Both the position numbers and the translations under genes were made by a program. From Verrucomicrobiales bacterium (lineage in GTDB: Bacteria; Verrucomicrobiota; Verrucomicrobiia; Limisphaerales; J093): 64,000 bases of DNA. The stretch's first letter is position 1. The number at the start of each line of letters is the position of its first letter. Of this stretch, positions 43,953 to 64,000 are shown one piece after another. Where the stretch lies: NCBI GenBank assembly GCA_037439785.1, contig JBBIVJ010000025.1:5935-69934 (forward strand), given 5' to 3'. Below the pieces are notes generated by a model, which worked only from the letters and a program-made list of their open reading frames with translations, did not search any database and was not told the origin of the DNA.

Positions 43953-46232
43953 TTACGGCGTCGCGGGGGTGTTGGTGGCAGCGGGCGCCGGCGCGGCGGC
44001 CGGGGCGGGAGCCGGCCTGGTGGTGCCGGACCTTTCAGCCTGGGGGCGACGCTGGATTTCCTCGCGCGACTGGCCGGCCCGGCCACCGGTGAGCCGGTGC
44101 ACCCAGCCGAAGCTGTTGAGCAGGCTGTAGAGGAAACCGGCCGCCACAAGCACCGCCAGGAGCTTGGGCCAGAGGGAGGGGCGCTCGGCGAAACGATCGC
44201 CGGCGCCGATCACCGCCCCCGGCGGCACCTGGGCCACCTGGGTGAGCGAGGCGCCGAAGGGCACGTTGATGCGGGCGCGGGTGTTGATGGCCCAGCCGTT
44301 GGCGTCCAGCAGGGGGCCGAGGTTGCGCTTGCGCAGCTTGAGCCAGGCGATGAGCAGCGAGGGGCCGGAGATGATCAGCAGCAGGGCCGCCACCGCCAGG
44401 CAGACCTGCCAGAACGGCAGCTTGAGCAGACCAGTGATGTAGCCGGCCAGGGTGCCGAAAGCGACGCCCAGGGCGCCGAAGGCCACGCCCAACGCGGCCA
44501 CGGTCCCCACGTCCACCTTCTTGGGACCGGGGGCGGTGGCAGGGGCGGTACCGGGCTGGGTGAGGGGGGTGGCCGCTTGGGCCAGCCGGGCGTCTGAAGT
44601 GGCTTCGGCAGCGGCGGCACGCTTGGCGACCTGTTCCTCGATGAAGCGGACGAGTTTTTTGTAGGGGGCCCAGAAGGCCTGCCGGAGGCTGATGGGGTTG
44701 TCCACGATCTTGGTGATGGTGGCATCCCAGTCGCGGCCCTGGCGGTCGTAGAAGACGCCGTTGCGGCCGACCATGAGGTTGTCGGCGTCGCCGTTGGTGA
44801 AGGCGGCCACGATTTGCATTTTCTGGCCACTGGCCTTGTGGGTGCAGTCGCAGTAGGCCAGGTAGGCGCCGGAGAGGCCGGCCAGGGCGGCGTGTTTGGC
44901 GGCGTCCTCGACCCGCAGGCACAACAGGCAGCTCCGCTGGTCCAGGTAGAGGGTGCCGGCCTGGAAGATGGCCGGTTCGCCGCGATCGTAAAAGTCCTTG
45001 AAGTTGACGAAATTCAGGCAGAAGGCATGCAGGTCGCGCAGAAAGCGGAGGAGTTTTTCCACCGCGGCGATGGCCTGCACGTGGGGGTCTTCGGCCCGGT
45101 CGCGCGCGATCAGGGCGGTGAGGGTGGCCTGGCCGGGGCCGGCGAGGATTTCGCGCACGCGGGCGGCGCCGAGCCGCTCCACCGACACCGTGGGTTTGGC
45201 GGCCTGCCAGGCATGGTTGGGGGCCAGTTTGGCCTGGACGGCGGCCCAGTCCGCCTCGGTCAGTTCGGCCCGCTCGCCCAGCAGCGGCTCCAGCGCGGCG
45301 GCCTGGAAGGTGGCCATCGCCCCGGCCCAGGCCGGATGCAGGCCGGTGCGGAGCGGCAACGGTTGGTCCGGGGCGACCGCCGCCAGGGGGAACGCGCCGA
45401 GTTCCGCGGCGGTGATGGAGAGGTCCCGCGCGGCCAGGGCGAGGTAGTCCTTTTCCTCGCGGTTGAGCGCAGCCAGGGCGCGGGGATCGTAGGCGGCCAG
45501 CCGGCAGCGGCCGAAGTAGTCGTCCACCTTCGCCTTGACCGCCTGCAGGGCGGCGGCGGCGGCGGCAGTGGCCTCGCCCAGGGGCAGCACGGCAGGGTCG
45601 GTCTCGGCCTGCTTCAGCCAGGTGTCCCACGCCGCGCACTCGGCAAAGAACTGGTCCACCCGGGCCTGGTTCACGCCCGGCCGGCCGGAACGGTCAGTCT
45701 CCGCCCCCAGGCAGGCGAGGATGTCGGCGATCAACGCGCGGGTGGCATCGTCCTCGGCCGACTCGGCCACGATGACGCCGTCGCCGTTGAAGGCGGTTTG
45801 GGCGAGGATGCGGGTGGTGTCGGCCACGTCCTCGAGGCTGATGGTGGTGGCGTCGGGCTTGCCCAGGCGGGCAAGGATCAGGCGGGCCGTCTCGCGGAGG
45901 TTCTGACCTTCGGGGGTGGCGTCGTGGATCGAGGCCAGCGGCAGGATGGAGGTGTGCCTGAGCAGGTCGTCGGGGTTCTTGAGCAGGTGACCGGTCCAGC
46001 GGATGGCCTGGATGAGTTCGGGGGCGCGGATGCGGCCGTCGCGGTCGGCATCGAGCAGGGCCAGGGTCTTGGGGTCGAATTCCAGGCCGGTGGCCGGGCA
46101 GGCCAGGGCCACCCAGAGCTTTTGATCGAGTGAATCCAGGGCCAGCAGGTCGGCCCCGGTGTCCAGCCGGACCTGGTGGAAGCCGCCGGCGCGGAAAAAT
46201 CTCCACGGGTGGTTGGGAGCAGAGGGGTTCAT
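43953..46232 (-). CDS. large uncharacterised protein with one canonical EF-hand loop and C-terminal transmembrane helices
   Basis: Start at 'MNPSAPNHPWRFFRAGGF'. 'DADRDGRIRAPE' fits DxDxDGxIxxxE. The C-terminal helices are 'VAALGVAFGALGVAFGTLAGYI', 'VCLAVAALLLIISGPSLLIAWL' and 'LLAVLVAAGFLYSLL'. Confidence 0.65.
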   Translation of the reverse strand: MNPSAPNHPWRFFRAGGFHQVRLDTGADLLALDSLDQKLWVALACPATGLEFDPKTLALLDADRDGRIRAPELIQAIRWTGHLLKNPDDLLRHTSILPLASIHDATPEGQNLRETARLILARLGKPDATTISLEDVADTTRILAQTAFNGDGVIVAESAEDDATRALIADILACLGAETDRSGRPGVNQARVDQFFAECAAWDTWLKQAETDPAVLPLGEATAAAAAALQAVKAKVDDYFGRCRLAAYDPRALAALNREEKDYLALAARDLSITAAELGAFPLAAVAPDQPLPLRTGLHPAWAGAMATFQAAALEPLLGERAELTEADWAAVQAKLAPNHAWQAAKPTVSVERLGAARVREILAGPGQATLTALIARDRAEDPHVQAIAAVEKLLRFLRDLHAFCLNFVNFKDFYDRGEPAIFQAGTLYLDQRSCLLCLRVEDAAKHAALAGLSGAYLAYCDCTHKASGQKMQIVAAFTNGDADNLMVGRNGVFYDRQGRDWDATITKIVDNPISLRQAFWAPYKKLVRFIEEQVAKRAAAAEATSDARLAQAATPLTQPGTAPATAPGPKKVDVGTVAALGVAFGALGVAFGTLAGYITGLLKLPFWQVCLAVAALLLIISGPSLLIAWLKLRKRNLGPLLDANGWAINTRARINVPFGASLTQVAQVPPGAVIGAGDRFAERPSLWPKLLAVLVAAGFLYSLLNSFGWVHRLTGGRAGQSREEIQRRPQAERSGTTRPAPAPAAAPAPAATNTPATP

Positions 46233-46533
46233 GGGGGCAACGTGGTCAGGTCGCGGAAGCAAGTTAGTGCTGGACGCCGGGCTGGCAATGCGAAATAGCC
46301 GCCGGAGTGGCAGGCAGCCGGGCCATCTTTCTTTACTCCGGCTGACGCTGGCGGCCACGCGCAGATTGCCCGTCCAGCCGGGACCGCGAGGGGGCGGCCC
46401 CTCCCCCGTGGCAGTCCTTCGCCGCCGGCTCGCGGGTGGGTCGGCCTCCCCGCCGACTCTGCCGGCTGCGACCGCCCTGAAAAACCACCCCGTGCCAGCT
46501 TGTTCCGGGGACTCGGCCGGTCACAATGTCGGC

Positions 46534-47577
46534 GTGAAACCGGCTCCTTCCCCACCTGACGCCGCGGCAGCCGAGCCGTACCCGGTCCGGGCCGGGGCGC
46601 GGGACCGGTGGGTCCTGGCGCGGCGACCGGCCCGCACCCCGCCGGACCTGACGCGGCCGGTGGCGGCTTTCATCGAGCGGGAACGGGACGAGCAGGGGCG
46701 CGTGGTGACCGGGCTCACGGTGTTGCTGGCCAGTCGCGAGTGCCCGTGGCGCTGCGTGATGTGTGACCTGTGGCAGCAGACCGTGCCGGGGGCCGTGCCG
46801 CCGGGAATGATTCCCCGCCAGGTGGAGGCCGCCCTGGCCGTGGCGGGTCCGGAGGCGCGTCAGGGGCCACTGAAGTTGTACAACAGCGGCAGCTTTTTCG
46901 ATCCCCGGGCCCTCCCCCCCGCGGATTACCCCGCCGTCGCCGCACGGGCGGTGGGTTTCGAGCGGGTGGTGGTCGAGTGTCATCCGGCGCTGATCGGGCG
47001 GCGGGTGGTGGCGTTCCGGGATCAGTTGCAGGTGGCGGCCGCGGTGGCGGGGGTGCCCGCCCCGCGATTGGAGGTGGCGATGGGACTGGAGACCGCGCAC
47101 CCGGAGGTGCTGGAGCGGTTGCACAAGCGGGTAACCCTCGACCACTTCCAAAAGGCAGCGGAGTTTCTCCGGCGGGAGGCGGTAGCCTTGCGGGTGTTCA
47201 TCCTGGTCCAACCGCCGTTTCAACCGCCCGCGGAGGCGGTGAGCTGGGCGGTGCGGTCGGTGGACCTGGCCGTGGAGTGCGGCGCGGCGGTGGCGGTGTT
47301 GATCCCCACGCGGCCGGGCAACGGCGCGCTGGAGGCGCTGGCGGCGGCGGGCCAGTTCACACCGCCGCGGCTCGCAACCCTGGAGGCGGCGTTCGAGCAG
47401 GGGCTGCGTCCGGGACGGGCGAGGGTTTTTGCCGATTTGTGGAACCTCGAACGGTTCGCGGATTGCCCGGCCTGTTTTGCGGCGCGGCGCGCCCGGCTCG
47501 AGCGGATCAACCATGAACAGACCTGCCCGCCGCGGGTGCGCTGCGCCCGCTGCGGGGCGGGGTCCACGGGGAGTTGA
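46534..47577 (+). CDS. radical SAM protein (unassigned subfamily)
   Basis: 'LLASRECPWRCVMCDLW' CxxxCxxC cluster about 60 aa from a GTG start at 46534. The ORF-track start at 46159 would overlap the divergent gene. It also has a C-terminal Cys cluster 'CPACFAARRARLERINHEQTCPPRVRCARC'. Confidence 0.65.
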   Translation: MKPAPSPPDAAAAEPYPVRAGARDRWVLARRPARTPPDLTRPVAAFIERERDEQGRVVTGLTVLLASRECPWRCVMCDLWQQTVPGAVPPGMIPRQVEAALAVAGPEARQGPLKLYNSGSFFDPRALPPADYPAVAARAVGFERVVVECHPALIGRRVVAFRDQLQVAAAVAGVPAPRLEVAMGLETAHPEVLERLHKRVTLDHFQKAAEFLRREAVALRVFILVQPPFQPPAEAVSWAVRSVDLAVECGAAVAVLIPTRPGNGALEALAAAGQFTPPRLATLEAAFEQGLRPGRARVFADLWNLERFADCPACFAARRARLERINHEQTCPPRVRCARCGAGSTGS

Positions 47578-52829: not shown

Positions 52830-53085
52830 TGTACCGCCCCGGCCCGGTTCTGCAATCCCACGGCTTCACCCTCCACCCCGCCCAGACGGCCAACGGGCCC
52901 CCCCGTCGGCCCCTGCGGGGAAGAGCCGCAGATGTGCGCTCAAACACACATTTACGGCAACCCCACGCCGGCCTACACAGAGTTAGTCTTTGGAGCCGTG
53001 GGGCGCGGGAGACCGACCGGGATTGACAGTCGGGGCGGTTCCCGTAATCGTACGGCGAACACCGAAGCCAACAGACAGACCTGCC

Positions 53086-53985
53086 ATGAAGAGTTACCCA
53101 ACCTCTACCGAGCGGCAGCGGCGCGGCGGCTTTACGCTGATCGAGCTACTGGTGGTCATCGCCATCATTGCCATCCTGGCCGGGATGCTCCTGCCGGCAC
53201 TGGCCCGGGCCAAATCCAAGGCCACGGGCATCATGTGCATGAACAACACCAAGCAGTTGATGCTCGCCAACCACATGTACCAGGGCGACAACAACGACAA
53301 ATTCCCCGGAGCCTACCATGGCGGTTTCGTGCCGGGGTCCAACGCCCGGGAACGCCCCTGGGTGACGGGGTGGCTGGACTGGACCACCAGCCCGGACAAC
53401 ACCAACACCCTGTACCTCCTTGATCCCCGCTACGCGGTCCTGGCGAACTACTTCGCCGGAGCCAAGAACATCTACAAGTGCCCCGCGGATAAATATGTGT
53501 CCCCCGCCCAACGGTCCCGGGGTTGGACCGAGCGGGTGCGCAGTGTGTCGGGAAACATCTACATCGGTGAAGGCAACGGCTGGAGCACGCTGGGGGGTGG
53601 GCCCAGCGGCCCCAACAATCTCCAGATGTACCGCGGGGCGACCCGAGCCTCCGATTTGATCATACCCGGACCGGCTCAGACGTGGGTGTACGTGGATGAA
53701 CACCCGGACAGCATCAACGACGCGGGCTGCTTCCCGCCCAACTCGCCCACCAACATCCCGGACGCACCGGCGACGTATCACAACCTGGCCGCGGGGTTCG
53801 CTTTCGCGGACGGGCACTCCGAGATTCGCAAATGGATTGGTCCGACGATGAAAAGGCCCCGGCGCAGCAATGGATTGGACGGCGTCATCTTCCAGGCGCA
53901 AAACAACTTTACCACGGTTCGAGGTGATCCCGACTTGAGTTGGTACTCGCGGGTCTCTCCGCGCCAGACCGAAGCCCATTTTTAG
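53086..53985 (+). CDS. prepilin-type N-terminal cleavage/methylation domain protein, HX9DG family
   Basis: '[26 protein letters not shown]' and C-terminal '[14 protein letters not shown]' (H-x9-DG). Confidence 0.85.
53170..53457. repeat. 288-nt block identical to 54336-54623
   Basis: By direct comparison, the 5' thirds of the two HX9DG genes are identical over this block. Identity falls to roughly 80% immediately downstream. Confidence 0.85.
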
Positions 53986-54251: not shown

Positions 54252-55109
54252 ATGAAAAGCTGCCAAACCAACCAGACCCGCCGGACGTGGGGCGGGTTCA
54301 CCCTGATCGAGCTGCTGGTGGTCATCGCCATCATCGCCATCCTGGCCGGGATGCTCCTGCCGGCACTGGCCCGGGCCAAATCCAAGGCCACGGGCATCAT
54401 GTGCATGAACAACACCAAGCAGTTGATGCTCGCCAACCACATGTACCAGGGCGACAACAACGACAAATTCCCCGGAGCCTACCATGGCGGTTTCGTGCCG
54501 GGGTCCAACGCCCGGGAACGCCCCTGGGTGACGGGGTGGCTGGACTGGACCACCAGCCCGGACAACACCAACACCCTGTACCTCCTTGATCCCCGCTACG
54601 CGGTCCTGGCGAACTACTTCGCCAACTCCAAGAACGTGTACAAGTGCCCGGCGGACAAGTACGTCTCGAACGCCCAGCGAGCCAGGGGCTGGACCGAGCG
54701 CGTCCGGAGCGTATCGGGCAACATCCTCGTGGGCGAAGGCAACGCGGAAACCGGTCCCATGGGCAGCATCTATGCCCACCCGGTGCGGGCTTCTGACTTG
54801 ACCATCCCTGGACCCAGCGAGACGTGGGTGTACGTGGATGAATTCCCCGACAGCATCAACGACGCCGGCTGTTTCCCACCCAACAGCTCGATCAACATCG
54901 TGGACATCCCCGCCAATTACCACAATGGCGCCTGTGGGTTTGCCTTCGCGGACGGCCACTCGGAAATCCACAAGTGGATCGGTCCCAGGATCAAGAACCT
55001 CAAAATCACGGCTCGTGACTACCAGCTCAACATTACCACCGTCAAAGGTGACCCCGACCTGCGCTGGTATTCGTACAAGAGCCCGCGCAAGACCACCGAT
55101 TATTACTGA
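54252..55109 (+). CDS. prepilin-type N-terminal cleavage/methylation domain protein, HX9DG family (paralog)
   Basis: '[26 protein letters not shown]' and '[14 protein letters not shown]'. Confidence 0.85.
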
Positions 55110-55164
55110 GCCGGCTCTGGCCTGAATCCTTCAGGGTTCGACAACTGGTAACAGGGTTACACGC

Positions 55165-55197
55165 ATTGGCCCGCCACAAGGCGGGCCAATTGCTTTT
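55165..55197 (+). terminator. rho-independent terminator after the second HX9DG gene
   Basis: ATTGGCCCGCC-acaa-GGCGGGCCAAT followed by TGCTTTTGG. Confidence 0.6.
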
Positions 55198-55306
55198 GGT
55201 CGGCCAGGCAGGGTCGGCGAGGACGCCGACCTTCCCCCGCGAGCGGGGAGGGACCGCGTCCCCGCGGTCCCGGCAGAAACGAGCACGTTGCCCGTCCCAC
55301 TTCACC

Positions 55307-55398
55307 GGAGCGCCGACTGGCAAGTAGCCACCGGCGTGAGCCGGCGGGCAGGCGGTCCGCCACGCCACCCGGCGGCTAGGGCGGAGCGCCGACTGGCA
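55307..55398. repeat. intergenic repeat cluster (two copies of GGAGCGCCGACTGGCA, 76 nt apart, plus several short hairpins at 55213-55280)
   Basis: The exact 16-mer occurs at 55307-55322 and 55383-55398. The flanking GC-rich hairpins include GTCGGCG-agga-CGCCGAC and GGACCGCG-tcc-CCGCGGTCC. Confidence 0.8.
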
Positions 55399-55748
55399 GA
55401 CGGCGATACAGCCGGCTGGAAGCCCGCCCTACGCCGGGGCTGTGGTGCCGGCCTCTCAAGCTGGGGTCTCGGCGTCCTGGCGTCTGGGCGGTGAATCTCG
55501 CCTGTCGAAAGCGGCAGAAGCCTGCCGCACTCCAGGGCGCTATCGCACGGAAGGCACCCTCGGTCAACGCGGGTCCGGGTTGGCAGGCGCCGGGCTCGCG
55601 GCGGCGGCGTCCCACAGCCGGGTGCGCTGGAGCTGCGCGTTGCCGATGACCACGTCCTGGAAGCCGTCGCCGTCCAGGTCCAGCACCCGCACGCCGTTGT
55701 CGCCGCCGTCGAGCGCGCGCAACGGCTGTCCAGCCAGCAGGTGGGTGT

Positions 55749-56210
55749 TCAACCGCGCCTCGACCTCGCGGAAGGTGAGGAACTTGACCCGGTCGCCGGG
55801 GCCGGCAGGCCAGCCGGGGTGAGCCCCCCAGCCCGGCACCGAGCAGCAGGGCGGCCGGCAACCACCTCGGCCGGTCCCGGCGCCCGGTGCCGGGCGCAAA
55901 GCCGGCCGCGAAGCGATTCGTCAAGAAGTTCATCTGTGTCGTGGGCGTATCCCAACGGCCCGCCCCGGACCAGCCGGCCGGCGGGGCGTTCCTGCCGCTG
56001 GAAGACGTCGGGGTTGTTGCCGGAAAGGACATTGTAGGGCCGGGAGACATCCGGCCGCCAGGCCAGCCTCAATAGCCGCAGGTCGCTCGAGCAGGCAAAC
56101 CCCTGCGCCCCGGCCCTGGCCCGGCCCGGAGCTGGCAACAACAGTCCGGCCAGGACCGTGATGAGGGCGATGCCCCCCACAGTTCGATCCACGTGAAACG
56201 CGTCGGCGCG
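55749..56210 (-). pseudogene. probable decayed prepilin-type (HX9DG/DUF1559-like) gene fragment
   Basis: The minus-frame translation 'AFHVDRTVGGIALITVLAGLLLPAPGRARAGAQGFACSSDLRLLRLAW' parallels '[47 protein letters not shown]'. The FTLIE processing motif is destroyed and there is no credible start. Confidence 0.3.
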
Positions 56211-56451
56211 GGCGGCCCAAGCGTCCACAAAGCCGATGTTGCCCCCTGGACGCCGATGGCAGGGGGCGTCAGCCGGCAGGGGCTGGTCGCCACGGTGACA
56301 TCGCTCCACGGGCCGGTTACGCTGTCGGCGCTCTGCAAGGCGCCGCCGCTCCATTCCAGGAGCCAGCCGCTGCTTGAGCCGCGCCTCGAGTCGGAGGCGG
56401 ACCCCGGTCGCCCCGGGGTGATGAAGGCGCGCAACCCCTGCCTGCCGCGAG

Positions 56452-57566
56452 TCACGGCGCCCGCAGGCGGAAGAAACACTCGGGCTGGGCCGGGGAAAGG
56501 GTCACCGCGTACCAATCGCCCTGCTGGCTCACGGCATTGGTCACCGGTGCCCAGATCGGTGCGGACAGTTGGGGGTCCATTCCAGCGTGCCGTCGGCCCA
56601 GTTGGTGGACCAGGTCAATTCCAGGAGGTGCGGGGCCACGAGCCGCACCGTAAGCCGCGGCACCGCTCCGGGGCGCCCCGTCAGGAACACGCCCGAATCC
56701 GACGTCCAGGTGACTCCGGGCGGGGTCTCCACCACCAGGAGCTGGACGCTGCCGCCAAAGTCGGAGACTCCTTCCGCCTCCTGCCCGGGGGCGTTCCAAG
56801 CCACTGCCGACGCTGCGGCCTCCAGGCGGGCCGAAAACGAAACCTGACGGGTACGCGGGAGAATGTAGTTGTCTCCGGGAAGTGCCAGCCAGGTGCTCAC
56901 GGCAAAGGGCGCGGATATGGTGGATATGGTGCGCGGCGATTGCTCCGGAAGCACCGTGACGCTGTAAGCCCAGCGGTAATCGGAGCCCGGCGGACTCCCC
57001 GCACCCTGAAAAACCACCCGCGCATATTGGCTGGCAGAGCTGTAATTGATCCCCACGCGCCCCACGGCCGCCAGGTTGCCGGTCAAGCGGCCCCGCAAAG
57101 TGGCCACCAGGCCGCTGGGATAATGTCCTGCCGGCACGGTAAAACGAAGCGTATCCCAACAGTCAACCACGCCTTGTCCCCCCGCCGATTCCGGTATGAC
57201 GAAGTCCGCGGGCGGCTTGTACCCGCGGACGCAGGTCCCGATCCGGCCGCTCGACAGAGCGACATGATACCGCGCCACGGACAACTCCCCGAATGGCCCG
57301 GTGTGCTCCCTCTGGCCGCCATAAGCGGTCAAATGGGTTGAGACCCAGCGCGGGGACTGCCCCACCCCCACCACCATGCCACTTATGCCAAACCCCTGTT
57401 CCCCACCGACCAACGAACCACCGGTCCCCAACCACAGCGCCGCCCCAGCCAGCCCCCATACGGCCCCGGACGACGGCCACTCCTGACCGGGCTGTGAGGC
57501 GTGGGGACGGTGCACTTCGCGCCGGGGGACATTGGGCTGACTCCACCTGCCAGCTTCATGGGACAT
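56452..57566 (-). pseudogene. secreted protein gene interrupted by a frameshift in a C5 run (pseudogene, sequencing error or recoding)
   Basis: The 341-aa ORF (56541-57566) ends '...LELTWSTNWADGTLEWTPN'. The overlapping frame continues 'QLSAPIWAPVTNAVSQQGDWYAVTLSPAQPECFFRLRAP*'. This C-terminal tail is of the same type as that of the 12183-19136 protein. Confidence 0.45.
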
Positions 57567-58296
57567 GAACGGAACACTGTCTCGACACCGGTGTGATGGC
57601 CGAGGAGGTCATTATATCGCTACGCCACGCCTTCAACATTTTCAAGGGCTCGCCCGTGTTGCTGCCCGGGGCGGGAAGCCTTTGTTTGCGCGAGATCAGG
57701 ACCGCGCCCTGGGCGGGAGATCGGCCGACGATCCATTCGCCCGGGACTGCGGCCACACCCGCCTTCCGGTCACCGCCACTCCGGGGGTGGGCGAGTGATG
57801 GCGCGGCTGAAGCTGTTTAGCCGGGCGCCCTCACCCGAATCGCCCGGCACGGCCACACCCGGACCACAGGGGGGGCAACCCGCGCTGAAGACCGGTGGGG
57901 GAACCACAACCGGCCATCCCGCGCGCGCCAGCCGGTGGGCTGCACCCTCCCAGTGCATTCCCGGCTGGGCAGGCCGTCGGCTTCATCCAGGCTCAGCACC
58001 GGCAGCCGGCCGCGCCGGGCGGCCAGGGGGCCGTTCGCAGGTGGCCGTGTACCTGCTGAAAATCCGCTTCGAGCTGCTCAGCCACAGCCGGCCCCGCGCG
58101 TCTTCGAGCAGGCAATAAATCAGGACGTCTGGCAGGCCGTGCCGACTTGCAACACCACCGGCCCTCGCTTTCGCAGCGGCGGCGACTGGTGGGCTTCATG
58201 AACCGCTTCCCACCAGACCACCCGCAGCGCAACCAGGCAACTGCGCACCGCCGCAGACAAAAGGGACGCGCTGCCCCGAGCCGGGGGCGGGGCCGC

Positions 58297-61089
58297 CTAT
58301 TCTTCCCGGATTGTCAGTTGGGCCGTCAAACCGAGCTCTTCAAGCGCCCGGCTCAGCTCGGTCTCCAGATTGCCCGCCTCCTCGCCGGAGACCGTTACCG
58401 AGAGATCCACCTTCACCTTCAAATCGGCCTTTGCACGGAGCCGGGGGAGGATTTTGGTCCCAAACCGATTCCAGTGCTCGGGCGGGAGGGCCCCCTCCAG
58501 CCGAAGGGTTGTGGACGCCTTGCGGGCAGGCGGCTGAGGCGGAGGCGGTGGGGTCACCGGTGCCGGCGGCTGGGGGGGAGTCGGCGGGGGGTGAGGACCG
58601 GGTCCGGGACCGGGCGGCGTGGGAAGGGGGGGCGCGGGAGGCGGGCTGCCGGACTTGAGCGCCCGGGCCCGGGCCCGGGTCAGCAGAAACACGTCCGCCT
58701 CGAAGGCCAACTCCTCGGAAGAGACCGGTTCCTGGAACCAGACCCGCTCGAAGGTCCCGTCCGGCTTCAGGTGCGAGGCCAGGCCAAAGTCACCCCTGCC
58801 GACGAACTCGACGATCTTCCCCCGCAGGGTCGTGTCGGGGTCGAGCAGCCGGGGGAGCGTGCCATTGAGGAAGCACTGCCGCAGGCTGGCGAGCGGCCAG
58901 GCCCCCGACTCCTTCAACGCGGGCGGCCAGTTTCGGTCGAGGTACCCTGCGCCCACGGAATCGTTGAGGAGCTCCTCCGACTTGAGCGTGGCAATGATCC
59001 GGCCGCAGAGGGTCTCGCCGCTGCTGGAGTGGCCCGCACCCAGGTCAAGGGGGCGGAGGCCGCCTTCCCGTGTCGCCTCCGCCACGACCACGAAGCGGTA
59101 GCTGGCCCAGACTTCCTCGCGGGCGGCTTCCCGGGCCTCCCGCAGTTTGGCCTGCAGGTCGGCGCGTTCGTTCCGATCGTACTCTCCCCCCAGCGTGCCC
59201 TCGTCCACCTCCCGGGCCACGCGCTGCCAGGCCAGCCACAGCTCCACTTTATCCCGCAGGTCGCGGCCCGGTTTCTTGAGGCACCAGACCAGCGCGCCGG
59301 GGTACAGGCGGGGGGACTTGTCGCGCTGCCGGGTCCATTCCGCAAGCCGGCCCCGCAGCGGGTCCGCCCCCGTCCACTCCTGCTCCGGATCCACCAGGAC
59401 CAGCGTCAGCCGGGGCGAGTCCGGGATTTCCGCCCCCTCACGCGGGAAGGGTACCACCGGCAGGGTGGTAGCGCGTTGGAACTCCTCCCGCACCAACTGG
59501 CGGAGGGTGGGCAGGACCTCGGTCGCTTCGTCCAGCGACGCCCGCCGGTCGTTCACCACCTTCTTGAAGGTGGGCTTGTACAGGATGCGAAAGCCGTCCG
59601 CGCCCACTTTGCGGATGAAGTAGGCCCTGCTTTCGAGGGCGAAGGCGGCGTTGTCCACCGAGGTGGTATCCACCTGCGGCTCGCCCAGGGCGAAGCGCAA
59701 CTCGGGCAGGTGGGCGACCTTGTCGCTCTGGCCACCGCAGGACTCGAAGAAGATGGCGGTGCCCACGCGGCGGTGGAGGTCGCGGAGGGCCCCCTTGGTG
59801 TCGGCGTCCAGGGCGCGGGTGTGGGCCAGTTCGCCGGCGAGGTCCGCTTCGATGGCCGGCACCAGGCGGGATTCACCCAACTGTCCCAGGACCACGCCGC
59901 GAAAGGCCGGATCGAAGAGCGGGGCCGAGCCGAGAGTGATCAGCGGCTCGTTGCGGGACTTCTCGATGCCGGTGCGGTAGGCCCAGCCGATCCACTGGGC
60001 CAGCATGGCCAGCGTGCCGCGGGTCTGCTGGTATTGCGGCAGGGCCTGCCATTTATGCTGAAACACCGACAACGTGGCCGGGTGGAACGGGTAGCAGGCT
60101 TCAAACCGCTGCCGCAGGTGCTCCCGCGCCCGCGTATCCGTGGTGGCCGCGTCCACCACCGTCCAGGCCGGCGGCAGTTGGGCGCGGCGCTCGAAGACCC
60201 AGTCGGCGTACTCCCGGGCCACCTTCCGCCGTACCCGCTCCGGGCCCAGGTCCTCGAAAAGCCGCCGGCGCACCACCTCGCTGATTTCGGCCTCCTCGTT
60301 CACGATCAAATCTTTGGCCACGCGCCGGACCACCTTGGTGATCCGTTCCTGCCACTGCAGGTCCCAGTCGGTCATTTCGACCTGGCTCCGGGGCAGGCTG
60401 ATGACCGTGGCGGTGTGCGGGGCACCGGTCGTGGCCACCGTCAGGTTCTGGAGGAAGGCATGGAAGGAGTCCGCCAGGCTGCGATGCCGGTTGAGGAAGT
60501 TCAGCACCTCGTCGAACAACAGCAACACCGGCGCCGCGGCGGCCCGGAAGACCCGGCCCAGGGCCTCCGTCCCCGGCGGGGTGGTGTGCGCCGCCGGCCC
60601 GAGCGCCTCCACGCCCGCCTCCCCCGCCACCTGGCGGGCCAGGTCAATCCACGGCGTCTCCCGACCCGGCTGCGGGTCCCAGGCATTGCCCACAAACACC
60701 CCCACCCGCGACCCCGGCACGAACGCCACGCCCGCCTCCCGCAGCAGGTCCGGCACCCCGCTGAACTGCATCGCCCGCTCCGCGCGCCTGGCCAGGTGAT
60801 ACAGCGTCGTCAGCGTGTGCGTCTTGCCGCCGCCAAACTGCGTGATCAGGGTCAGCACCGGCGCGGTGTGGTCGGTTCGGCCTGCAAGCCGGCGCAGCAC
60901 CATGCCGGCGTGCTCGCGCAGGGCGCGCGTCCAGCACGTGCGGGCAAAAAACGGCTCCGGCTCGCGGTAGTCTTCCGGCGCGGTGCCGGCGACGACCTGC
61001 TCCAGGGCAATGGCGAACTCATCCGGGTTGAACGAGCGGCCCTCGCGCACTTCCCGGCGCGGGGTCACGACTTTGTACCAGGGTTCCAT
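58297..61089 (-). CDS. DUF499-type P-loop ATPase (defence-island associated)
   Basis: Start 'MEPWYKVVTPRREVREGRSFNPDEFAIAL' is preceded by AGGAGG. It has Walker A 'ITQFGGGKTHTL', Walker B 'VLLLFDEVLNFL', and 'CYPFHPATLSVFQHKW'. Total length is 930 aa. Confidence 0.8.
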   Translation of the reverse strand: MEPWYKVVTPRREVREGRSFNPDEFAIALEQVVAGTAPEDYREPEPFFARTCWTRALREHAGMVLRRLAGRTDHTAPVLTLITQFGGGKTHTLTTLYHLARRAERAMQFSGVPDLLREAGVAFVPGSRVGVFVGNAWDPQPGRETPWIDLARQVAGEAGVEALGPAAHTTPPGTEALGRVFRAAAAPVLLLFDEVLNFLNRHRSLADSFHAFLQNLTVATTGAPHTATVISLPRSQVEMTDWDLQWQERITKVVRRVAKDLIVNEEAEISEVVRRRLFEDLGPERVRRKVAREYADWVFERRAQLPPAWTVVDAATTDTRAREHLRQRFEACYPFHPATLSVFQHKWQALPQYQQTRGTLAMLAQWIGWAYRTGIEKSRNEPLITLGSAPLFDPAFRGVVLGQLGESRLVPAIEADLAGELAHTRALDADTKGALRDLHRRVGTAIFFESCGGQSDKVAHLPELRFALGEPQVDTTSVDNAAFALESRAYFIRKVGADGFRILYKPTFKKVVNDRRASLDEATEVLPTLRQLVREEFQRATTLPVVPFPREGAEIPDSPRLTLVLVDPEQEWTGADPLRGRLAEWTRQRDKSPRLYPGALVWCLKKPGRDLRDKVELWLAWQRVAREVDEGTLGGEYDRNERADLQAKLREAREAAREEVWASYRFVVVAEATREGGLRPLDLGAGHSSSGETLCGRIIATLKSEELLNDSVGAGYLDRNWPPALKESGAWPLASLRQCFLNGTLPRLLDPDTTLRGKIVEFVGRGDFGLASHLKPDGTFERVWFQEPVSSEELAFEADVFLLTRARARALKSGSPPPAPPLPTPPGPGPGPHPPPTPPQPPAPVTPPPPPQPPARKASTTLRLEGALPPEHWNRFGTKILPRLRAKADLKVKVDLSVTVSGEEAGNLETELSRALEELGLTAQLTIREE

Positions 61090-61373
61090 CGGGAGCCTCC
61101 TATTCCGCCCGTGCCAGGCGCAGCTTCCCGCGGCAGTCGTCCACGAAGGCCTGCAGCGCAGGATCGTCTTTCCCGGCACGATAAAAGTTCATGGCGCCCG
61201 GCCGGGCGCGGAAACTCCGGGCTCACGTCCCCCAGGGACTTGAACCCGCGGCTCGTCAGTTTCTTCAGCATGGGCGCTTCTTCCTCGTGGCGCCGAAAGC
61301 CTCCGTGCCCCGGGCCAGCAGGTGCTGTGTGCCCGGCAGGGTACAGGACCGCCCCCCCGCTGGCCAGCCCCGG

Positions 61374-61410
61374 AAAAACCCGCCGCACCCGGCGGGCCGG
61401 CCCGGTGCGG
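61374..61410 (-). terminator. candidate rho-independent terminator downstream of the methyltransferase gene
   Basis: On the minus strand: CCGCACC-(GGC..GCC inner stem)-GGTGCGG, then CGGGTTTTTCC. It lies about 125 nt after the stop codon. Confidence 0.4.
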
Positions 61411-61534
61411 GCATTCCCTGCCGGCCGATTCCAACCCTCCGCGGGCGGAGGCCGTGTCCCCGAAGGCCGGCCGGAGGAACGTTGCGGCGCCCGCGTTCCC
61501 GCGCCGGGTGCCCGCGGCGTCCCGGCCGTGCCCC

Positions 61535-64000
61535 TCACCGCGGCACCGCCAGCAGCATCGCATCGAGCAGGCGCTTTTCCTCGCTGCCCTTCAGGTACAG
61601 GGCCGAGAGCGCGTTGGCGAGCCGCAGAAAGTCCGGCCCGCGCTCCTGCTCGGCCCTGAGCAGCGCACGCAGCGCGTGGGTGCGGCCCGCCGACTGCAGG
61701 AGCATCGCGGCGTGCACGCGGTCCAGCGTCGTCGCCTCGCGCGCCGCGGAAAGGCCCGGCTCAGAAGCGGTACCCGGGCCGGCCGCGCGCCCGGCCCGCC
61801 GGCCGCGAATCCGGGGGGGTTCCGCAGGCTGCTCATTCGGGAACAACGGCAACGGCGGCTGCGCGCCGTGCCGCGCCTCTTCCTCGAGGCGCGTGGCGAG
61901 GGCCCGGGCACCGGCGTCGCCGAAGAGCTGCTCCGCGCGCTCGGCGACCGGCAGCAGGCGCACGACGCCCTTTTCCGTCTCGATCACGCGGCCTTCCCAT
62001 TTCGGCAGCTCGATGCCGAGCGGCTGCGCGAAGCGGCGCACCACGTCGAAGGCCAGCGCACAGCACTTCGTCTTTGGCCGCGAAGTCCCCTCCTCCTCCT
62101 CGTCGGCGTCGTCGGTCGGCTCCCCCTCCACGCCCTCGTCGCTCGTACCCCCGGCGGTCTCGCCGTTCGTGCTCTGGAGCGCCCAAAGAAACAGCGCCGT
62201 CAGGCGCGCGTCCTCTTCCAGGGCACCTGCCACGCCGTTGCGCGCCCTGGCTTCGGCCGTTCCCAGGACGTTTTCCAGTGCGATGCGGCCCACGACCTCC
62301 CACACCCGCTCCAGGTACTCGGCGAGGGTGACCTCTCGCCCTTCGGCCGTTTCGACCGTGCGGTAGCGGCTGAAGATCTCGAGCGCCGGGCCGATGCAGG
62401 CGAAAACGAGGTCCGCGCCGCGCACGCCCTCGCCCTGGAGGCGCTCCATCCAGTCGCCCACGCGCCTCGGCAGCTCGCGCAGGACGTCGGCCCAGTCGCC
62501 CACCGGGGCGTCGTTGGGGCGGGGGCGGCAGATGAGGTGGACGCTGGTGGCGAGGGCAGCGGATTCACGTGCGCGCAGGCGCGAGTATCTCTCTGTCGCT
62601 ATCGGCCAAGAACCCGTAACGGTCCACCCTCCGCGAATCATGCCGGAAAGGAGCGCCTCCCAGCCTTCGGTGGTCTTGTGTGCGAAGACGACCGAACCGA
62701 CACCGTCCTCACGCAGCACCCGATGACCCTCAGCGAAAGCCTTGGCCATTGTTTCTTCAAACCAAGCGCGATCCTTCGGCTGTCCGTCGTCGTGCTTCGT
62801 CTCGTCTTGCACTGCCTCTTGCCGCTTCGGGGTGAGCGGATTCGCGGGATCGAACGGGTCGCGAAGCAGCGCGTGATTCGGAAGCAATCGCTTGAACCAC
62901 ACGAAAAAGAAATCCGACAAGTCTGAGTACGGAACTGCGTCGTAGTAAGGCGGGTCCGTGAACCACGCCGCCGCCGCTTGATCTGGGAGCGGATGATTGC
63001 GCGCATCAACCAGGTGCGAGGAGCCAGCCCCTGCGCCTGGGATGTAGGTGACTTCAGCGTTGCGGGCAACGTTGTCGACTGATTGGTCAACCGACGCGCT
63101 GGAATCACTCAGGACATTGCTTTCTGCGAAGTCCCAGGCCATCGGTACAGCGTTCCCCTTGAAGAGCTGGTTCGGACACTCAACTCCAAGACTCCAGTTC
63201 ACGAGGCTGTTGCAGCGGTCGGACAACTTCGTGCATACCATTGCCATCAGAGCTCGTGCCGCATCTGTGGCGGTGACACCCAAAGTGCGATGACAAAGGG
63301 AGACGAACGCCACCTTCTGCCGCGCCGTGAAGAGGTCGCCCCACTGGAGCATGCCGTACCGCTGCACGCTGAAGCCCAGTGTCCCGATCGGCGGCAGCGG
63401 CTCATCGGGCACCGGGCAGAGCCCCTGTTTCCCGCCGCCTGCCTGCGCCGCGTCCCGCGACGCGGCAGGCAGGCGCTCCCACTCCTCGATCAGCTTCGCG
63501 ACGCGCGCCTGCGCGTTGCGCACCGCCTCGTAGTCGCGCTCGGTCGGCAGCCGGTAGTGCCGGCCCGTCTCGCCGGGCCGGAGCGTCACCACCGCCAGCA
63601 TCCGCGCGCCGCCGGTGCGCCGGCCCTTCGCGCCTGCCTGCGCCGACCTGTCTGCGTGCGGACACGCACAGGCAGAGGCTTCGGCAGGCAGGTCGAAGAC
63701 CACGTCCGCGCCGCCGCGCTGCGCGGCGAGCTGCGCGCGCACGCGCTCGGGCGGCAGCACCGCGCCGCAGCAGAGGCACGTCGCCCGCGCCCGGCTGACG
63801 GTACCGGGCGGCACCTCGCGGTCGTTCGTCGGGGTAAAGATCTCAAAGCGGACGGAGCGGTCGGAGCGGTCGGGGAGCGGCCGCAGCGCCCGCTTGCGGT
63901 TCGGCTTCTTGCACAGCCAGAACGACCAGGCCAGCGGGATCTCCGCCCCGCAGTTCGGCGCCTCGCACCGCACCGTCCGCGCCCAGAGGTAGGCGATCGG
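61535..64000 (-). CDS. DUF1156-type DNA methyltransferase with Zn-ribbon (5' end outside the window)
   Basis: The frame is open to the window edge ('PIAYLWARTVRCEAPNCGAEIPL...ATCLCCGAVL' is the Zn-ribbon). The catalytic motif IV is 'WFTDPPYYDAVPYSDLSDFFFVW'. There is a long acidic C-terminal region. Confidence 0.8.
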   Translation of the reverse strand, partial: PIAYLWARTVRCEAPNCGAEIPLAWSFWLCKKPNRKRALRPLPDRSDRSVRFEIFTPTNDREVPPGTVSRARATCLCCGAVLPPERVRAQLAAQRGGADVVFDLPAEASACACPHADRSAQAGAKGRRTGGARMLAVVTLRPGETGRHYRLPTERDYEAVRNAQARVAKLIEEWERLPAASRDAAQAGGGKQGLCPVPDEPLPPIGTLGFSVQRYGMLQWGDLFTARQKVAFVSLCHRTLGVTATDAARALMAMVCTKLSDRCNSLVNWSLGVECPNQLFKGNAVPMAWDFAESNVLSDSSASVDQSVDNVARNAEVTYIPGAGAGSSHLVDARNHPLPDQAAAAWFTDPPYYDAVPYSDLSDFFFVWFKRLLPNHALLRDPFDPANPLTPKRQEAVQDETKHDDGQPKDRAWFEETMAKAFAEGHRVLREDGVGSVVFAHKTTEGWEALLSGMIRGGWTVTGSWPIATERYSRLRARESAALATSVHLICRPRPNDAPVGDWADVLRELPRRVGDWMERLQGEGVRGADLVFACIGPALEIFSRYRTVETAEGREVTLAEYLERVWEVVGRIALENVLGTAEARARNGVAGALEEDARLTALFLWALQSTNGETAGGTSDEGVEGEPTDDADEEEEGTSRPKTKCCALAFDVVRRFAQPLGIELPKWEGRVIETEKGVVRLLPVAERAEQLFGDAGARALATRLEEEARHGAQPPLPLFPNEQPAEPPRIRGRRAGRAAGPGTASEPGLSAAREATTLDRVHAAMLLQSAGRTHALRALLRAEQERGPDFLRLANALSALYLKGSEEKRLLDAMLLAVPR
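63436..63475. repeat. palindromic element inside the methyltransferase CDS
   Basis: GCCTGCCTGC(GC)CGCGTC-ccgc-GACGCGGCAGGCAGGC: a 16-bp stem with a 2-nt bulge. Confidence 0.75.
63632..63692. repeat. second, imperfect palindromic element with the same GCCTGCCTGC/GCAGGCAGG termini inside the methyltransferase CDS
   Basis: 'gcctgcctgcgccgacctgtctgcgtg cgga cacgcacaggcagaggcttcggcaggcagg'. The outer 9 bp and the inner 6+4 bp pair. Confidence 0.65.

What the first reader, a model, noticed from the sequence alone, without database searches (positions are those of the whole stretch)
58297..64000. DUF1156 methyltransferase + DUF499 ATPase: candidate poorly characterised anti-phage (modification-linked) module at the window edge
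A Zn-ribbon-containing DPPY methyltransferase is followed on the same strand by a 930-aa P-loop ATPase of the DUF499 type. The methyltransferase carries 'YLWARTVRCEAPNCG...' and 'FTDPPYYD'. The ATPase carries 'GGGKTH', 'LLFDE' and 'YPFHPATL'.

From memory, this pair belongs to a conserved defence-island gene set. That set usually also includes a helicase and a small DUF3780 protein. DUF499 ATPases also occur as BrxC/PglY in BREX. As far as I know, its mechanism is not established.

Here the module sits next to gene debris and repeats. It shows mosaic GC, and it has no nuclease or helicase downstream, so the remaining components, if any, lie beyond position 64000.
Basis: partly seen in the sequence, partly recalled or inferred. 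Interest (0 to 1): 0.7.

Follow-up and report, generated by a model that had tools for sequence, protein, structure and literature searches.

The report
Partial Hma anti-phage locus (hmaB–hmaC)
The window ends inside a known three-gene bacterial anti-phage system called Hma: the methylase and ATPase genes are intact, the helicase-nuclease gene should lie just past the window edge, and a deleted extra defence cassette has left a scar between the two visible genes.

Summary
Both genes are on the minus strand. The DUF1156-type methyltransferase runs from beyond 64000 to 61535, and the DUF499 ATPase is at 61089-58297. All quoted motifs are present.

Profile searches identify them as HmaB (4e-71) and HmaC (9e-93). 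These belong to the Hma system, also called the Type-1 DUF499-centred BREX-related system. Hma was named in 2021, its helicase-nuclease HmaA was tested against phage T4 in 2024, and the family was classified in 2026.

It is not BREX proper either.

In 43 of 46 related loci with enough upstream DNA, an HmaA gene (Snf2 helicase plus NOV_C nuclease) sits upstream of hmaB. That position is past 64000 here. The source contig is 71,673 bp long, but I could not fetch it.

Two new details emerged. The 445-nt hmaB-hmaC spacer holds a deletion scar of an embedded HEC-01-like cassette (ABC ATPase plus DUF4276 protein). hmaB also carries a low-GC3 tract that includes a hypervariable module.

Verdict: a new member of a known kind, in a Verrucomicrobiota genome, of modest interest. 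The roles of HmaB and HmaC remain unproven anywhere.

The parts
61535..64000 (-). hmaB, a DUF1156-type N6-adenine-class (DPPY) DNA methyltransferase. The C-terminal 821 of 1040 codons plus the stop codon are in the window. The first 219 codons lie beyond 64000; they hold the DUF1156 helical domain and motif I (DPFAGGGS).
   Evidence: The frame is open. PADLOC gives HmaB 4e-71. Full-length P0121 is 100% identical and matches Pfam DUF1156 at 80.2 bits. All catalytic residues are invariant across 56 homologues.
63767..63967 (-). Four-cysteine zinc ribbon of the insert after core strand 2: C231, C236, C294 and C297 of the full protein.
   Evidence: The sequence reads 'CEAPNCG...CLCCG'. All four cysteines are invariant in 56 homologues. 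PMC12839542 describes this as the TRD insert of BR methyltransferases.
62945..62956 (-). Catalytic motif IV, DPPY (residues 568-571).
   Evidence: Seen in the translation. D568, P569, P570 and Y571 are invariant.
62561..63280 (-). Low-GC3 tract of hmaB (residues ~460-699). It includes a hypervariable, bimodal module (residues 460-549) and the motif IV region.
   Evidence: GC3 is 0.60-0.73 here and 0.87-1.0 in the flanks. The closest relative, L082, shows the same dip. Identity over residues 460-549 is 0.21-0.36 for most homologues, 0.60-0.74 for about a dozen and 0.90 for P0122. Its rank is anti-correlated with C-terminal identity (rho -0.64).
61272..61534 (-). GC-rich spacer of about 262 nt between the hmaB stop and the cassette remnant. 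It has no counterpart in the closest relative, where only 10 nt separate the genes.
   Evidence: It is not repeated in the window or in the related loci. Its folding energy is no better than shuffled sequence (z = 0.07). It has no Rfam match. It contains a hairpin followed by TTTTT, read directly from the sequence.
61100..61271 (-). Deletion scar of an embedded HEC-01-like cassette. The first 24 codons of an ABC-type ATPase (ATG at 61271) are joined at about 61196|61195 to the last 29 codons plus stop of a DUF4276-like partner, in another frame. About 1.66 kb is missing.
   Evidence: tblastn against the intact cassette of L082 gives E 2.8e-8 for the N-terminus (MLKKLTSRGFKSLGDVSPEFPRPA) and E 6.5e-9 for the C-terminus (AMNFYRAGKDDPALQAFVDDCRGKLRLAR). 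blastn gives 77% over 88 nt, E 9e-16. The intact genes match AAA_21 and DUF4276 in Pfam, and HEC-01A at 2.7e-57 in PADLOC.
58297..61089 (-). hmaC, a DUF499 AAA+ (STAND/ORC-Cdc6-like) ATPase of 930 aa, complete, with no N-terminal HEPN fusion.
   Evidence: PADLOC gives HmaC 9.2e-93 and Pfam DUF499 gives 39.5 bits. The protein is identical to P0001. An AGGAGG ribosome-binding site precedes the ATG at 61089.
60817..60834 (-). Walker A motif, GGGKTH (residues 86-91).
   Evidence: Seen in the translation. G86 to H91 are invariant in 58 homologues.
60508..60525 (-). Walker B motif, LLLFDE (residues 189-194).
   Evidence: Seen in the translation. L189, L191, D193 and E194 are invariant.
58300..58659 (-). 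Proline-rich linker (residues ~811-858) followed by a variable C-terminal beta-alpha-beta-alpha-beta domain (residues 859-930). This is the least conserved part of HmaC.
   Evidence: Family identity is 0.33-0.65 here. The AlphaFold model gives E859-865, H870-885, E897-901, H902-919 and E926-929 at pLDDT 56-75. The Foldseek hits to ferredoxin-like folds are not significant. PMC12839542 describes an RRM/ferredoxin-like C-terminal domain in these ATPases.
58263..58277 (-). Terminator-like hairpin plus T-run, 20 nt after the hmaC stop codon.
   Evidence: Found by a consensus scan. This is a pattern match only.

Best explanation
The 3' end of the window carries the last two genes of an Hma system, also called a Type-1 DUF499-centred BREX-related system. 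The host is a Verrucomicrobiota genome that acquired the system horizontally. Both visible genes look functional: hmaB (DUF1156 amino-methyltransferase, N-terminus cut by the window edge) and hmaC (DUF499 AAA+ ATPase). The third gene, hmaA (Snf2 helicase fused to a PD-(D/E)XK nuclease), is expected immediately upstream of hmaB, beyond position 64000.

Likely mechanism, by steps:
1. HmaB methylates adenines in a short motif on host DNA. It would use its Zn-ribbon insert and variable module for recognition. Inferred from motifs I and IV.
2. HmaC, an ORC/Cdc6-like ATP switch with variable C-terminal sensor domains, binds DNA, recognises unmodified or foreign DNA, and assembles or licenses the complex. 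Inferred from homology to BrxC-type ATPases.
3. HmaA translocates on the invading DNA and nicks or cleaves it. This is shown experimentally only for the Halomonas homologue, against phage T4.

The hmaB-hmaC spacer also records the loss of an embedded HEC-01-like two-gene cassette. That fits the known habit of Hma operons of hosting, gaining and losing other defence genes.
For: Identity:
- PADLOC gives HmaB 4e-71 and HmaC 9.2e-93.
- Pfam gives DUF499 and, on full-length P0121, DUF1156.

Integrity:
- Both reading frames are uninterrupted.
- Motif I DPFAGGG, four Zn cysteines, DPPY, Walker A and Walker B all sit in columns that are invariant across 56-58 homologues.
- GC3 of 0.84-0.88 matches host genes.

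Synteny:
- Of 46 related loci with at least 4 kb upstream of hmaB, 43 carry an HmaA-like gene on the same strand, including the NOV_C nuclease region.
- That gene matches PADLOC HmaA at 1.2e-183, and Pfam SNF2-rel_dom, Helicase_C and NOV_C.
- The closest hmaB relative (L082, 77% identity) has the order hmaA - AIPR - hmaB - AAA_21 ATPase - DUF4276 - hmaC.

Room for hmaA:
- The source contig is 71,673 bp, which leaves up to about 7.0 kb upstream of hmaB.

Literature:
- Hma was defined as helicase, methylase and ATPase in PMC8565338.
- HmaA alone defends E. coli against T4, and its nuclease domain is a nickase (PMC11232893).
- The sensing-modifying-restricting model for BR systems is in PMC12839542.
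- 62.7% of Hma loci carry embedded genes (bioRxiv 2024.01.29.577857).

Horizontal origin:
- HmaC is 70-73% identical to proteins of Nitrospirota, Planctomycetota, Bacillota and Acidobacteriota.
- It is only 45-47% identical to six other Verrucomicrobiota Hma loci.
- The neighbouring HflX gene places the host in Verrucomicrobiota.
Against: - hmaA was not seen. The contig could not be retrieved, and a search seeded with the nearest relative's HmaA did not list a protein from a 71,673-bp contig among its top 120 hits.
- Three of 46 relatives lack an intact helicase nearby (L004, L027, L040).
- The locus has already suffered one internal deletion and sits next to gene fragments, so further decay is possible.
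- The restriction-modification logic is unproven anywhere. T4 grown in HmaB-overexpressing cells was no different in infectivity, and 15-20% of hmaA genes lack hmaB or hmaC neighbours (PMC11232893).
- My AlphaFold models were too poor to add structural support (pLDDT 62 and 52).
Confidence: 0.85

Rival explanations
1. The locus is a decaying or helicase-less remnant. Only hmaB and hmaC survive, either as an orphan methyltransferase/ATPase pair with an epigenetic or independent role, or on the way to becoming pseudogenes. In that case it is not a working Hma system.
For: - There is an internal deletion scar between the two genes.
- Gene fragments lie immediately downstream.
- Three of 46 relatives lack an intact helicase.
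- The helicase of this contig could not be found.
- Liu et al. speculate that HmaB and HmaC might act independently.
Against: - Both ORFs are full length with every catalytic residue intact.
- 93% of relatives keep hmaA upstream.
- The scar removed only the embedded cassette, leaving the hmaB stop codon and the hmaC ribosome-binding site and start intact.
- The source contig has room for hmaA.
Confidence: 0.1
2. It is the DUF499 / DUF3780 / DUF1156 / PLD-helicase system that the first reader recalled. This is the Type-2 BR system, covered by the NCBIfam 'anti-phage-associated' equivalogs.
For: The Pfam domains are the same. PADLOC's DUF1156_MTase and DUF499 models give weak hits (8.7e-17 and 8e-14). 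The NCBIfam models are the best NCBIfam hits.
Against: - NCBIfam scores are 185.5 against a cut-off of 1000, and 82.6 against a cut-off of 1200.
- The Hma models score 50-80 orders of magnitude better.
- Relatives' helicases carry a C-terminal NOV_C domain, not an N-terminal HKD/PLD domain.
- No DUF3780 gene occurs in the window spacer, in L082, or among the embedded genes I annotated.
Confidence: 0.02
3. It is part of a BREX system proper, with BrxC/PglY and PglX.
For: DUF499 ATPases and BrxC are homologous, and BR methyltransferases resemble Type-3 BREX PglXI (PMC12839542). There is a weak PADLOC PglX|PglXI hit at 5.6e-5. BrxC (PDB 9zdx) appears among the non-significant Foldseek hits.
Against: - No BrxC model matches at E<0.01.
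- The PglX hit scores 19 bits against 238 bits for HmaB.
- No PglZ, BrxA, BrxB or BrxL gene is present in the closest fully annotated relative (L082), and none appeared among the other annotated genes of related loci.
Confidence: 0.01

Closest known systems
Hma system (HmaA/HmaB/HmaC) of Halomonas meridiana SCSIO 43005 and the PADLOC Hma definition (Payne 2021, PMC8565338; Liu 2024, PMC11232893)
   Same: It has the same DUF1156 methyltransferase and DUF499 ATPase families. Gene order and strand are the same, hmaB then hmaC, with the helicase upstream in relatives. It shows the same habit of carrying an AAA_21 ATPase plus a small partner gene between hmaB and hmaC, present here only as a scar.
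   Different: The host is Verrucomicrobiota rather than a gammaproteobacterium. The embedded cassette is deleted. hmaA is not visible in the window. No functional data exist for this member.
Type-1 DUF499-centred BREX-related (BR) systems (Rakesh & Krishnan 2026, PMC12839542)
   Same: The core is tripartite. The methyltransferase has a DUF1156 N-terminus, a single 4-Cys Zn-finger insert and a C-terminal helical region. The ATPase ends in a variable small alpha+beta domain. The helicase in relatives carries a C-terminal PD-(D/E)XK nuclease.
   Different: The ATPase lacks the N-terminal HEPN domain found in 1370 of 2446 Type-1 taxa. The RRM-like C-terminal fold is only weakly supported by my model.
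Type-2 BR system (DUF499 + DUF3780 + DUF1156 + HKD/PLD-helicase; NCBIfam NF042962-NF042964)
   Same: The methyltransferase and ATPase are homologous, and the presumed RM-like logic is the same.
   Different: The window proteins fall far below the equivalog cut-offs. There is no DUF3780 gene. Relatives' helicases carry a NOV_C nuclease instead of HKD.
Type-3 BREX (BrxC, PglXI, BrxHII)
   Same: All three core proteins are related. The PADLOC BrxHII model matches relatives' helicase at 1e-101.
   Different: There are no PglZ, BrxA or BrxB genes. The ATPase belongs to a separate clade. The helicase carries an active nuclease fusion.
HEC-01 (Hma-embedded candidate 01: ABC ATPase + TOPRIM/DUF4276 protein; Payne et al. 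2024 preprint)
   Same: The scar at 61271-61100 matches the first 24 and last 29 codons of such a pair. The pair sits intact at the same position in L082, L003 and L040.
   Different: Here about 1.66 kb is deleted and the remnant is non-functional. HEC-01 itself gave no protection in the published assays.

Membership tests
Hma / Type-1 BR system | DUF499-type AAA+ ATPase (HmaC) | tested here: met
   PADLOC HmaC scores 9.2e-93 over residues 3-812 of the 941-position model. Pfam DUF499 scores 39.5 bits, above the cut-off of 23. Walker A and Walker B are intact.
Hma / Type-1 BR system | DUF1156-type DPPY methyltransferase (HmaB) | tested here: met
   PADLOC HmaB scores 4e-71. Full-length P0121 scores 80.2 bits on Pfam DUF1156, above the cut-off of 24. 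Motifs I and IV and the Zn ribbon are invariant.
Hma / Type-1 BR system | Snf2 helicase with a C-terminal PD-(D/E)XK (NOV_C/DUF3883) nuclease (HmaA) in the same operon | not testable with these tools
   Its expected position is beyond 64000. It is present in 43 of 46 related loci. The contig could not be fetched, and the homologue search did not reveal it.
Hma / Type-1 BR system | All genes on one strand in the order hmaA-hmaB-hmaC, with or without embedded genes | tested here: met
   For the visible part, hmaB is followed by hmaC on the minus strand, 445 nt apart. The same order holds in 66 related loci, with spacers from 53 nt to 7 kb.
Hma / Type-1 BR system | Anti-phage activity and self-methylation | not testable with these tools
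   This needs experiments. In the literature, only HmaA activity against T4 has been shown.
Type-2 BR (DUF3780 / PLD-helicase set) | Proteins reach the NCBIfam equivalog cut-offs NF042963 and NF042962 | tested here: not met
   Scores are 185.5 bits against 1000, and 82.6 bits against 1200.
Type-2 BR (DUF3780 / PLD-helicase set) | Stand-alone DUF3780 gene inside the locus | tested here: not met
   The only coding remnant in the hmaB-hmaC spacer is the HEC-01 scar. L082 has no DUF3780 among its precomputed Pfam hits, and none was found among the annotated embedded genes. The part upstream of hmaB is unseen.
BREX | BrxC/PglY ATPase and PglX methyltransferase | tested here: not met
   No BrxC model matches at E<0.01. 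PglX|PglXI scores only 19.4 bits.
BREX | PglZ, BrxA and BrxB genes in the locus | tested here: not met
   They are absent downstream in the window and in the relative L082. The upstream side is unseen.
HEC-01 embedded cassette | Intact ABC ATPase (HEC-01A) and TOPRIM/DUF4276 partner (HEC-01B) | tested here: not met
   Only 24 N-terminal codons and 29 C-terminal codons remain, in different frames.

The most novel reading that the evidence does not exclude
The most novel reading still open concerns hmaB. It proposes that the hypervariable, bimodal 90-residue module of HmaB (residues 460-549), which lies inside a low-GC3 tract, is a horizontally exchanged specificity cassette. Swapping it would reprogram the methylated motif, in the way hsdS domains are shuffled in Type I R-M systems. 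Together with the cleanly excised HEC-01 cassette, this would show Hma operons evolving by modular replacement at fixed junctions. A variant of this reading is that hmaB and hmaC work here without a helicase, as an independent epigenetic or defence pair.
Probability: 0.2. Interest if true: 0.5.

Novelty: new member of a known kind. Interest (0 to 1): 0.25.

Why it matters
For annotation, this turns two 'DUF' genes into a named defence system. It also predicts what lies just past the window edge.

More broadly, Hma / BR systems occur in thousands of taxa, yet only the helicase-nuclease has been tested. What the methyltransferase and the DUF499 ATPase do is still open. This locus adds two modest pieces of natural-history evidence:
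- a precise deletion scar showing that embedded defence cassettes are lost as well as gained without damaging the host operon;
- a compositionally distinct variable module in HmaB that is a candidate specificity determinant.

Neither changes the current picture of the system.

Tried and rejected
Extending the contig:
- Exact look-ups of HmaC (two start choices, plus P0001) and of full-length HmaB (P0121) found no record.
- The 341-aa downstream ORF returned only a 4.2-kb Logan contig that lies inside the window.
- The DUF1559 gene was not on record.

Finding the source's helicase by homology:
- I seeded a search with the HmaA of the closest relative (L082).
- The family is so conserved (84-92% identity across the top 120 hits) that no hit from a 71,673-bp contig was listed.
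- This is inconclusive. It is not evidence of absence.

Structure:
- AlphaFold2 on HmaC gave pLDDT 62 and pTM 0.35. On HmaB it gave pLDDT 52 and pTM 0.32. Both are too poor.
- Foldseek against the PDB with the HmaC model gave no hit below E 0.4.
- I did not run Foldseek on the HmaB model.
- Sequence and profile searches of the PDB found no solved relative.

The 262-nt spacer:
- It has no Rfam match, no unusual folding energy and no repeat elsewhere. It remains unexplained.

Mobile-element context:
- There is no tRNA in 30-64 kb.
- Eight ORFs spanning 43.9-57.6 kb give no defence-gene hit in PADLOC, apart from weak GTPase-level matches of HflX. On its visible side the locus is therefore not in a defence island.

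Readings rejected:
- Type-2 BR membership and BREX membership were rejected on the scores given in the membership table.
- I first took HEC-01 to be a validated defence system. The preprint says it gave no protection in their assays, so it is only a candidate.
Full report
**What is in the sequence.**
The region holds two long genes, both on the minus strand.

The first gene runs off the window edge at 64000 and stops at 61537-61535. Its 821 visible codons contain the quoted 'YLWARTVRCEAPNCG' and 'FTDPPYYD'.

The second gene is an ORF at 61179-58297. Its true start is the ATG at 61089, seven bases after an AGGAGG. That start gives a 930-aa protein with 'GGGKTH', 'LLFDE' and 'YPFHPATL'.

Both proteins of the source record are in the protein collection:
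- P0001 is 930 aa and 100% identical to the ATPase.
- P0121 is 1040 aa and 100% identical over the 821 visible residues of the methyltransferase.
- Both come from one NCBI contig of 71,673 bp.

So 657 nt of the methyltransferase gene lie beyond 64000. Up to about 7.0 kb more of the contig may lie upstream of it.

**Family assignment.**
- The window ATPase passes Pfam DUF499 at 39.5 bits (cut-off 23).
- The window methyltransferase fragment has no Pfam hit, because the DUF1156 domain is N-terminal and outside the window. The full-length P0121 scores 80.2 bits on DUF1156 (cut-off 24).
- PADLOC gives much stronger and more specific matches: HmaB 4e-71 and HmaC 9.2e-93.
- In alignments of 56-58 homologues, the window proteins keep every invariant catalytic residue. 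These are motif I DPFAGGG, the four zinc-ribbon cysteines, DPPY, Walker A GGGKTH, Walker B LLFDE and YPFHP.

DPPY marks an amino-methyltransferase acting on N6-adenine or N4-cytosine. This follows from established knowledge of motif IV. PMC12839542 calls these enzymes N6-MTases. The 'm5C' label in the 2021 and 2024 papers does not fit this motif.

**What the system is.**
Hma stands for helicase HmaA, methylase HmaB and ATPase HmaC.
- It was proposed in 2021 from 1,638 three-gene operons found in 26 phyla (PMC8565338).
- In 2024 the Halomonas meridiana HmaA alone protected E. coli against T4, and this needed its nickase domain. HmaA is a Snf2 helicase with a C-terminal PD-(D/E)XK nuclease. T4 grown with HmaB was unchanged in infectivity, and HmaB and HmaC were left unexplained (PMC11232893).
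- In 2026 the same loci were reclassified as DUF499-centred BREX-related (BR) systems of three types (PMC12839542):
  - Type 1: helicase fused to a PD-(D/E)XK nuclease.
  - Type 2: an added DUF3780 gene and an HKD-helicase.
  - Type 3: added PglZ and an inactive STAND protein.

**Which type this is.**
A scan of one genome per species returned 80 related loci. Their HmaC identity to the window protein is 45-72%, and they span more than a dozen phyla.

Of 46 loci with at least 4 kb upstream of hmaB, 43 carry an HmaA-like gene on the same strand, including the nuclease region. Representatives match PADLOC HmaA at 1.2e-183 and Pfam SNF2-rel_dom, Helicase_C and NOV_C.

The closest hmaB relative (77% identity, L082) has the order hmaA - AIPR - hmaB - AAA_21 ATPase - DUF4276 - hmaC. 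No DUF3780 or PglZ gene appeared.

The NCBIfam equivalogs built for the DUF3780/PLD-helicase set score only 185.5 against 1000 and 82.6 against 1200. No BrxC model matches.

The locus is therefore Hma / Type-1 BR. The ATPase begins directly with the conserved N-terminus, so it lacks the HEPN fusion seen in about half of Type-1 systems.

**The missing helicase.**
Synteny puts hmaA upstream of hmaB, past 64000. The median hmaA-hmaB gap is 1.3 kb and the maximum seen is 4.6 kb. The source contig probably has room for it.

I could not verify this:
- The contig is not retrievable with the look-up tools.
- My last protein search did not list a helicase from a 71,673-bp contig among its top 120 hits.

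The exceptions among relatives are:
- L004, where type III-C CRISPR genes lie upstream.
- L027 and L040, where only helicase fragments remain.

I estimate about 85% probability that an hmaA gene is there.

**A scar inside the operon.**
The 445 nt between hmaB and hmaC are not plain spacer.

On the minus strand, an ATG at 61271 opens 'MLKKLTSRGFKSLGDVSPEFPRPA'. This matches the first 24 residues of the ABC-type ATPase that sits at this exact position in L082, L003 and L040.

At about 61196|61195 the similarity jumps, in another frame, to 'AMNFYRAGKDDPALQAFVDDCRGKLRLAR' followed by a stop codon (61102-61100). This matches the last 29 residues of the DUF4276-like partner gene.

The supporting scores are tblastn E 2.8e-8 and 6.5e-9, and blastn 77% over 88 nt with E 9e-16.

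The intact pair matches PADLOC HEC-01A (2.7e-57) and Pfam AAA_21 and DUF4276. About 1.66 kb has been deleted, possibly across a GCCG microhomology. The hmaB stop and the hmaC ribosome-binding site are untouched.

HEC-01 is an 'Hma-embedded candidate' that gave no protection in the published assays. All Halomonas hma loci carry an AAA_21 gene plus an unannotated gene at this junction.

Among 66 related loci, the hmaB-hmaC spacer ranges from 53 nt to 7 kb, and at least eight hold HEC-01-type cassettes.

A further 262 nt (61272-61534), between the hmaB stop and the remnant, has no counterpart in L082. It shows no repeat, no special fold and no Rfam match. It remains unexplained.

**Composition.**
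Overall GC of hmaB (0.695) and hmaC (0.701) equals the window mean of 0.703, and their GC3 resembles that of host genes.

Within hmaB, residues ~460-699 (63280-62561) have GC3 0.60-0.73, against 0.87-1.0 on either side. The same dip is present in L082, so it predates the split of the two lineages.

The first 90 residues of the tract are hypervariable and bimodal across the family:
- Identity is 0.21-0.36 for most homologues, 0.60-0.74 for about a dozen, and 0.90 for P0122.
- Similarity in this tract is anti-correlated in rank with similarity in the C-terminal region (rho -0.64).

This pattern is what module exchange would produce. Whether the module sets target specificity is an inference. hmaC is compositionally uniform apart from its variable C-terminal 120 residues.

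**Surroundings.**
- Downstream of hmaC there is a terminator-like hairpin.
- Then come about 3 kb of fragments: an unannotated 341-aa ORF, a degenerate prepilin-like N-terminus and an FG-GAP fragment.
- Next are two tandem DUF1559/prepilin paralogues sharing 300 nt at 98% identity.
- Beyond those lie HflX, a PEP-CTERM protein and an H+-pyrophosphatase.
- No defence gene and no tRNA is visible on this side. This agrees with the report that Hma loci are not usually in defence islands.
- HflX places the host in Verrucomicrobiota, at 67% identity to Verrucomicrobiales MAGs.
- HmaC is 70-73% identical to proteins from Nitrospirota, Planctomycetota and Bacillota, but only 45-47% identical to six other Verrucomicrobiota loci. 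This indicates horizontal acquisition.

**How it most likely works.**
What is shown elsewhere: HmaA-type helicase-nucleases can block T4, and they need both the helicase and the nickase activity.

What is inferred:
- HmaB marks host DNA by adenine methylation.
- HmaC, an ORC/Cdc6-like ATP switch with variable sensor domains, discriminates or loads onto unmarked DNA and licenses HmaA.

Against a simple restriction-modification model stand the negative HmaB/T4 experiment and the sufficiency of HmaA alone.

My structure predictions were too weak to contribute, and no solved relative exists by sequence.

**Verdict.**
The thing is a member of an already named, widely distributed and partly tested system. 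The deletion scar and the variable low-GC3 module are small additions, not a new kind of system. Interest is 0.25.

Noticed in passing
window 61272-61534 (minus strand): A unique, GC-rich segment of about 262 nt lies between the hmaB stop and the HEC-01 remnant. The closest relative has only 10 nt there. It contains a hairpin followed by TTTTT. Its fold is no better than shuffled sequence, it has no Rfam hit, and it has no copy elsewhere in the window or in the related loci.
   Followed up: partly
window 52990-53985 and 54252-55109 (+): These are tandem paralogues with a prepilin-type N-terminal methylation motif and DUF1559. They share 300 nt at 98% identity and a further 209 nt at 75%.
   Followed up: partly
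window 55110-58296: About 3 kb downstream of hmaC has weak coding signal and only fragments. These are a 91-aa FG-GAP repeat piece (55564-55839, minus strand), a degenerate prepilin-like N-terminus in 55749-56354 (minus strand), and a 341-aa ORF (56541-57566, minus strand) with no family. That ORF is called as a gene on a Logan contig from run SRR11582161 which is 100% identical to window 54639-58836.
   Followed up: partly
L004:620-6277: In one close relative (Bryobacteraceae MAG), type III-C CRISPR-Cas effector genes (Cas10c, Cmr4, Cmr3) lie directly upstream of hmaB, where the helicase normally sits. No HmaA gene is present within 6 kb.
   Followed up: no
L003, L008, L009, L013, L025, L029, L043, L056 (between hmaB and hmaC, e.g. 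L008:8812-9987): A recurrent embedded gene of about 320-390 aa occurs in eight loci. It has no Pfam or PADLOC family above threshold. Only a sub-threshold HSDR_N-like (PD-(D/E)XK) C-terminus was seen. It is a possible undescribed Hma-embedded defence candidate.
   Followed up: partly
literature versus window 62945-62956: The 2021 and 2024 papers describe HmaB as an 'm5C methyltransferase'. The invariant DPPY motif instead marks an amino-methyltransferase (N6-adenine or N4-cytosine class), as the 2026 paper states.
   Followed up: partly
L003:2941-7216: In the Planctomycetota relative L003, hmaB is split into two ORFs. Its C-terminal end runs in frame into the HEC-01A-like gene without a stop codon, which suggests a degraded methyltransferase in that locus.
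   Followed up: no
window 43953-46358 (-) and 46159-47577 (+): An 801-aa ORF has no Pfam or PADLOC family. A 472-aa ORF has a sub-threshold radical-SAM match. The two ORFs overlap by about 200 nt at their 5' ends, on opposite strands.
   Followed up: no
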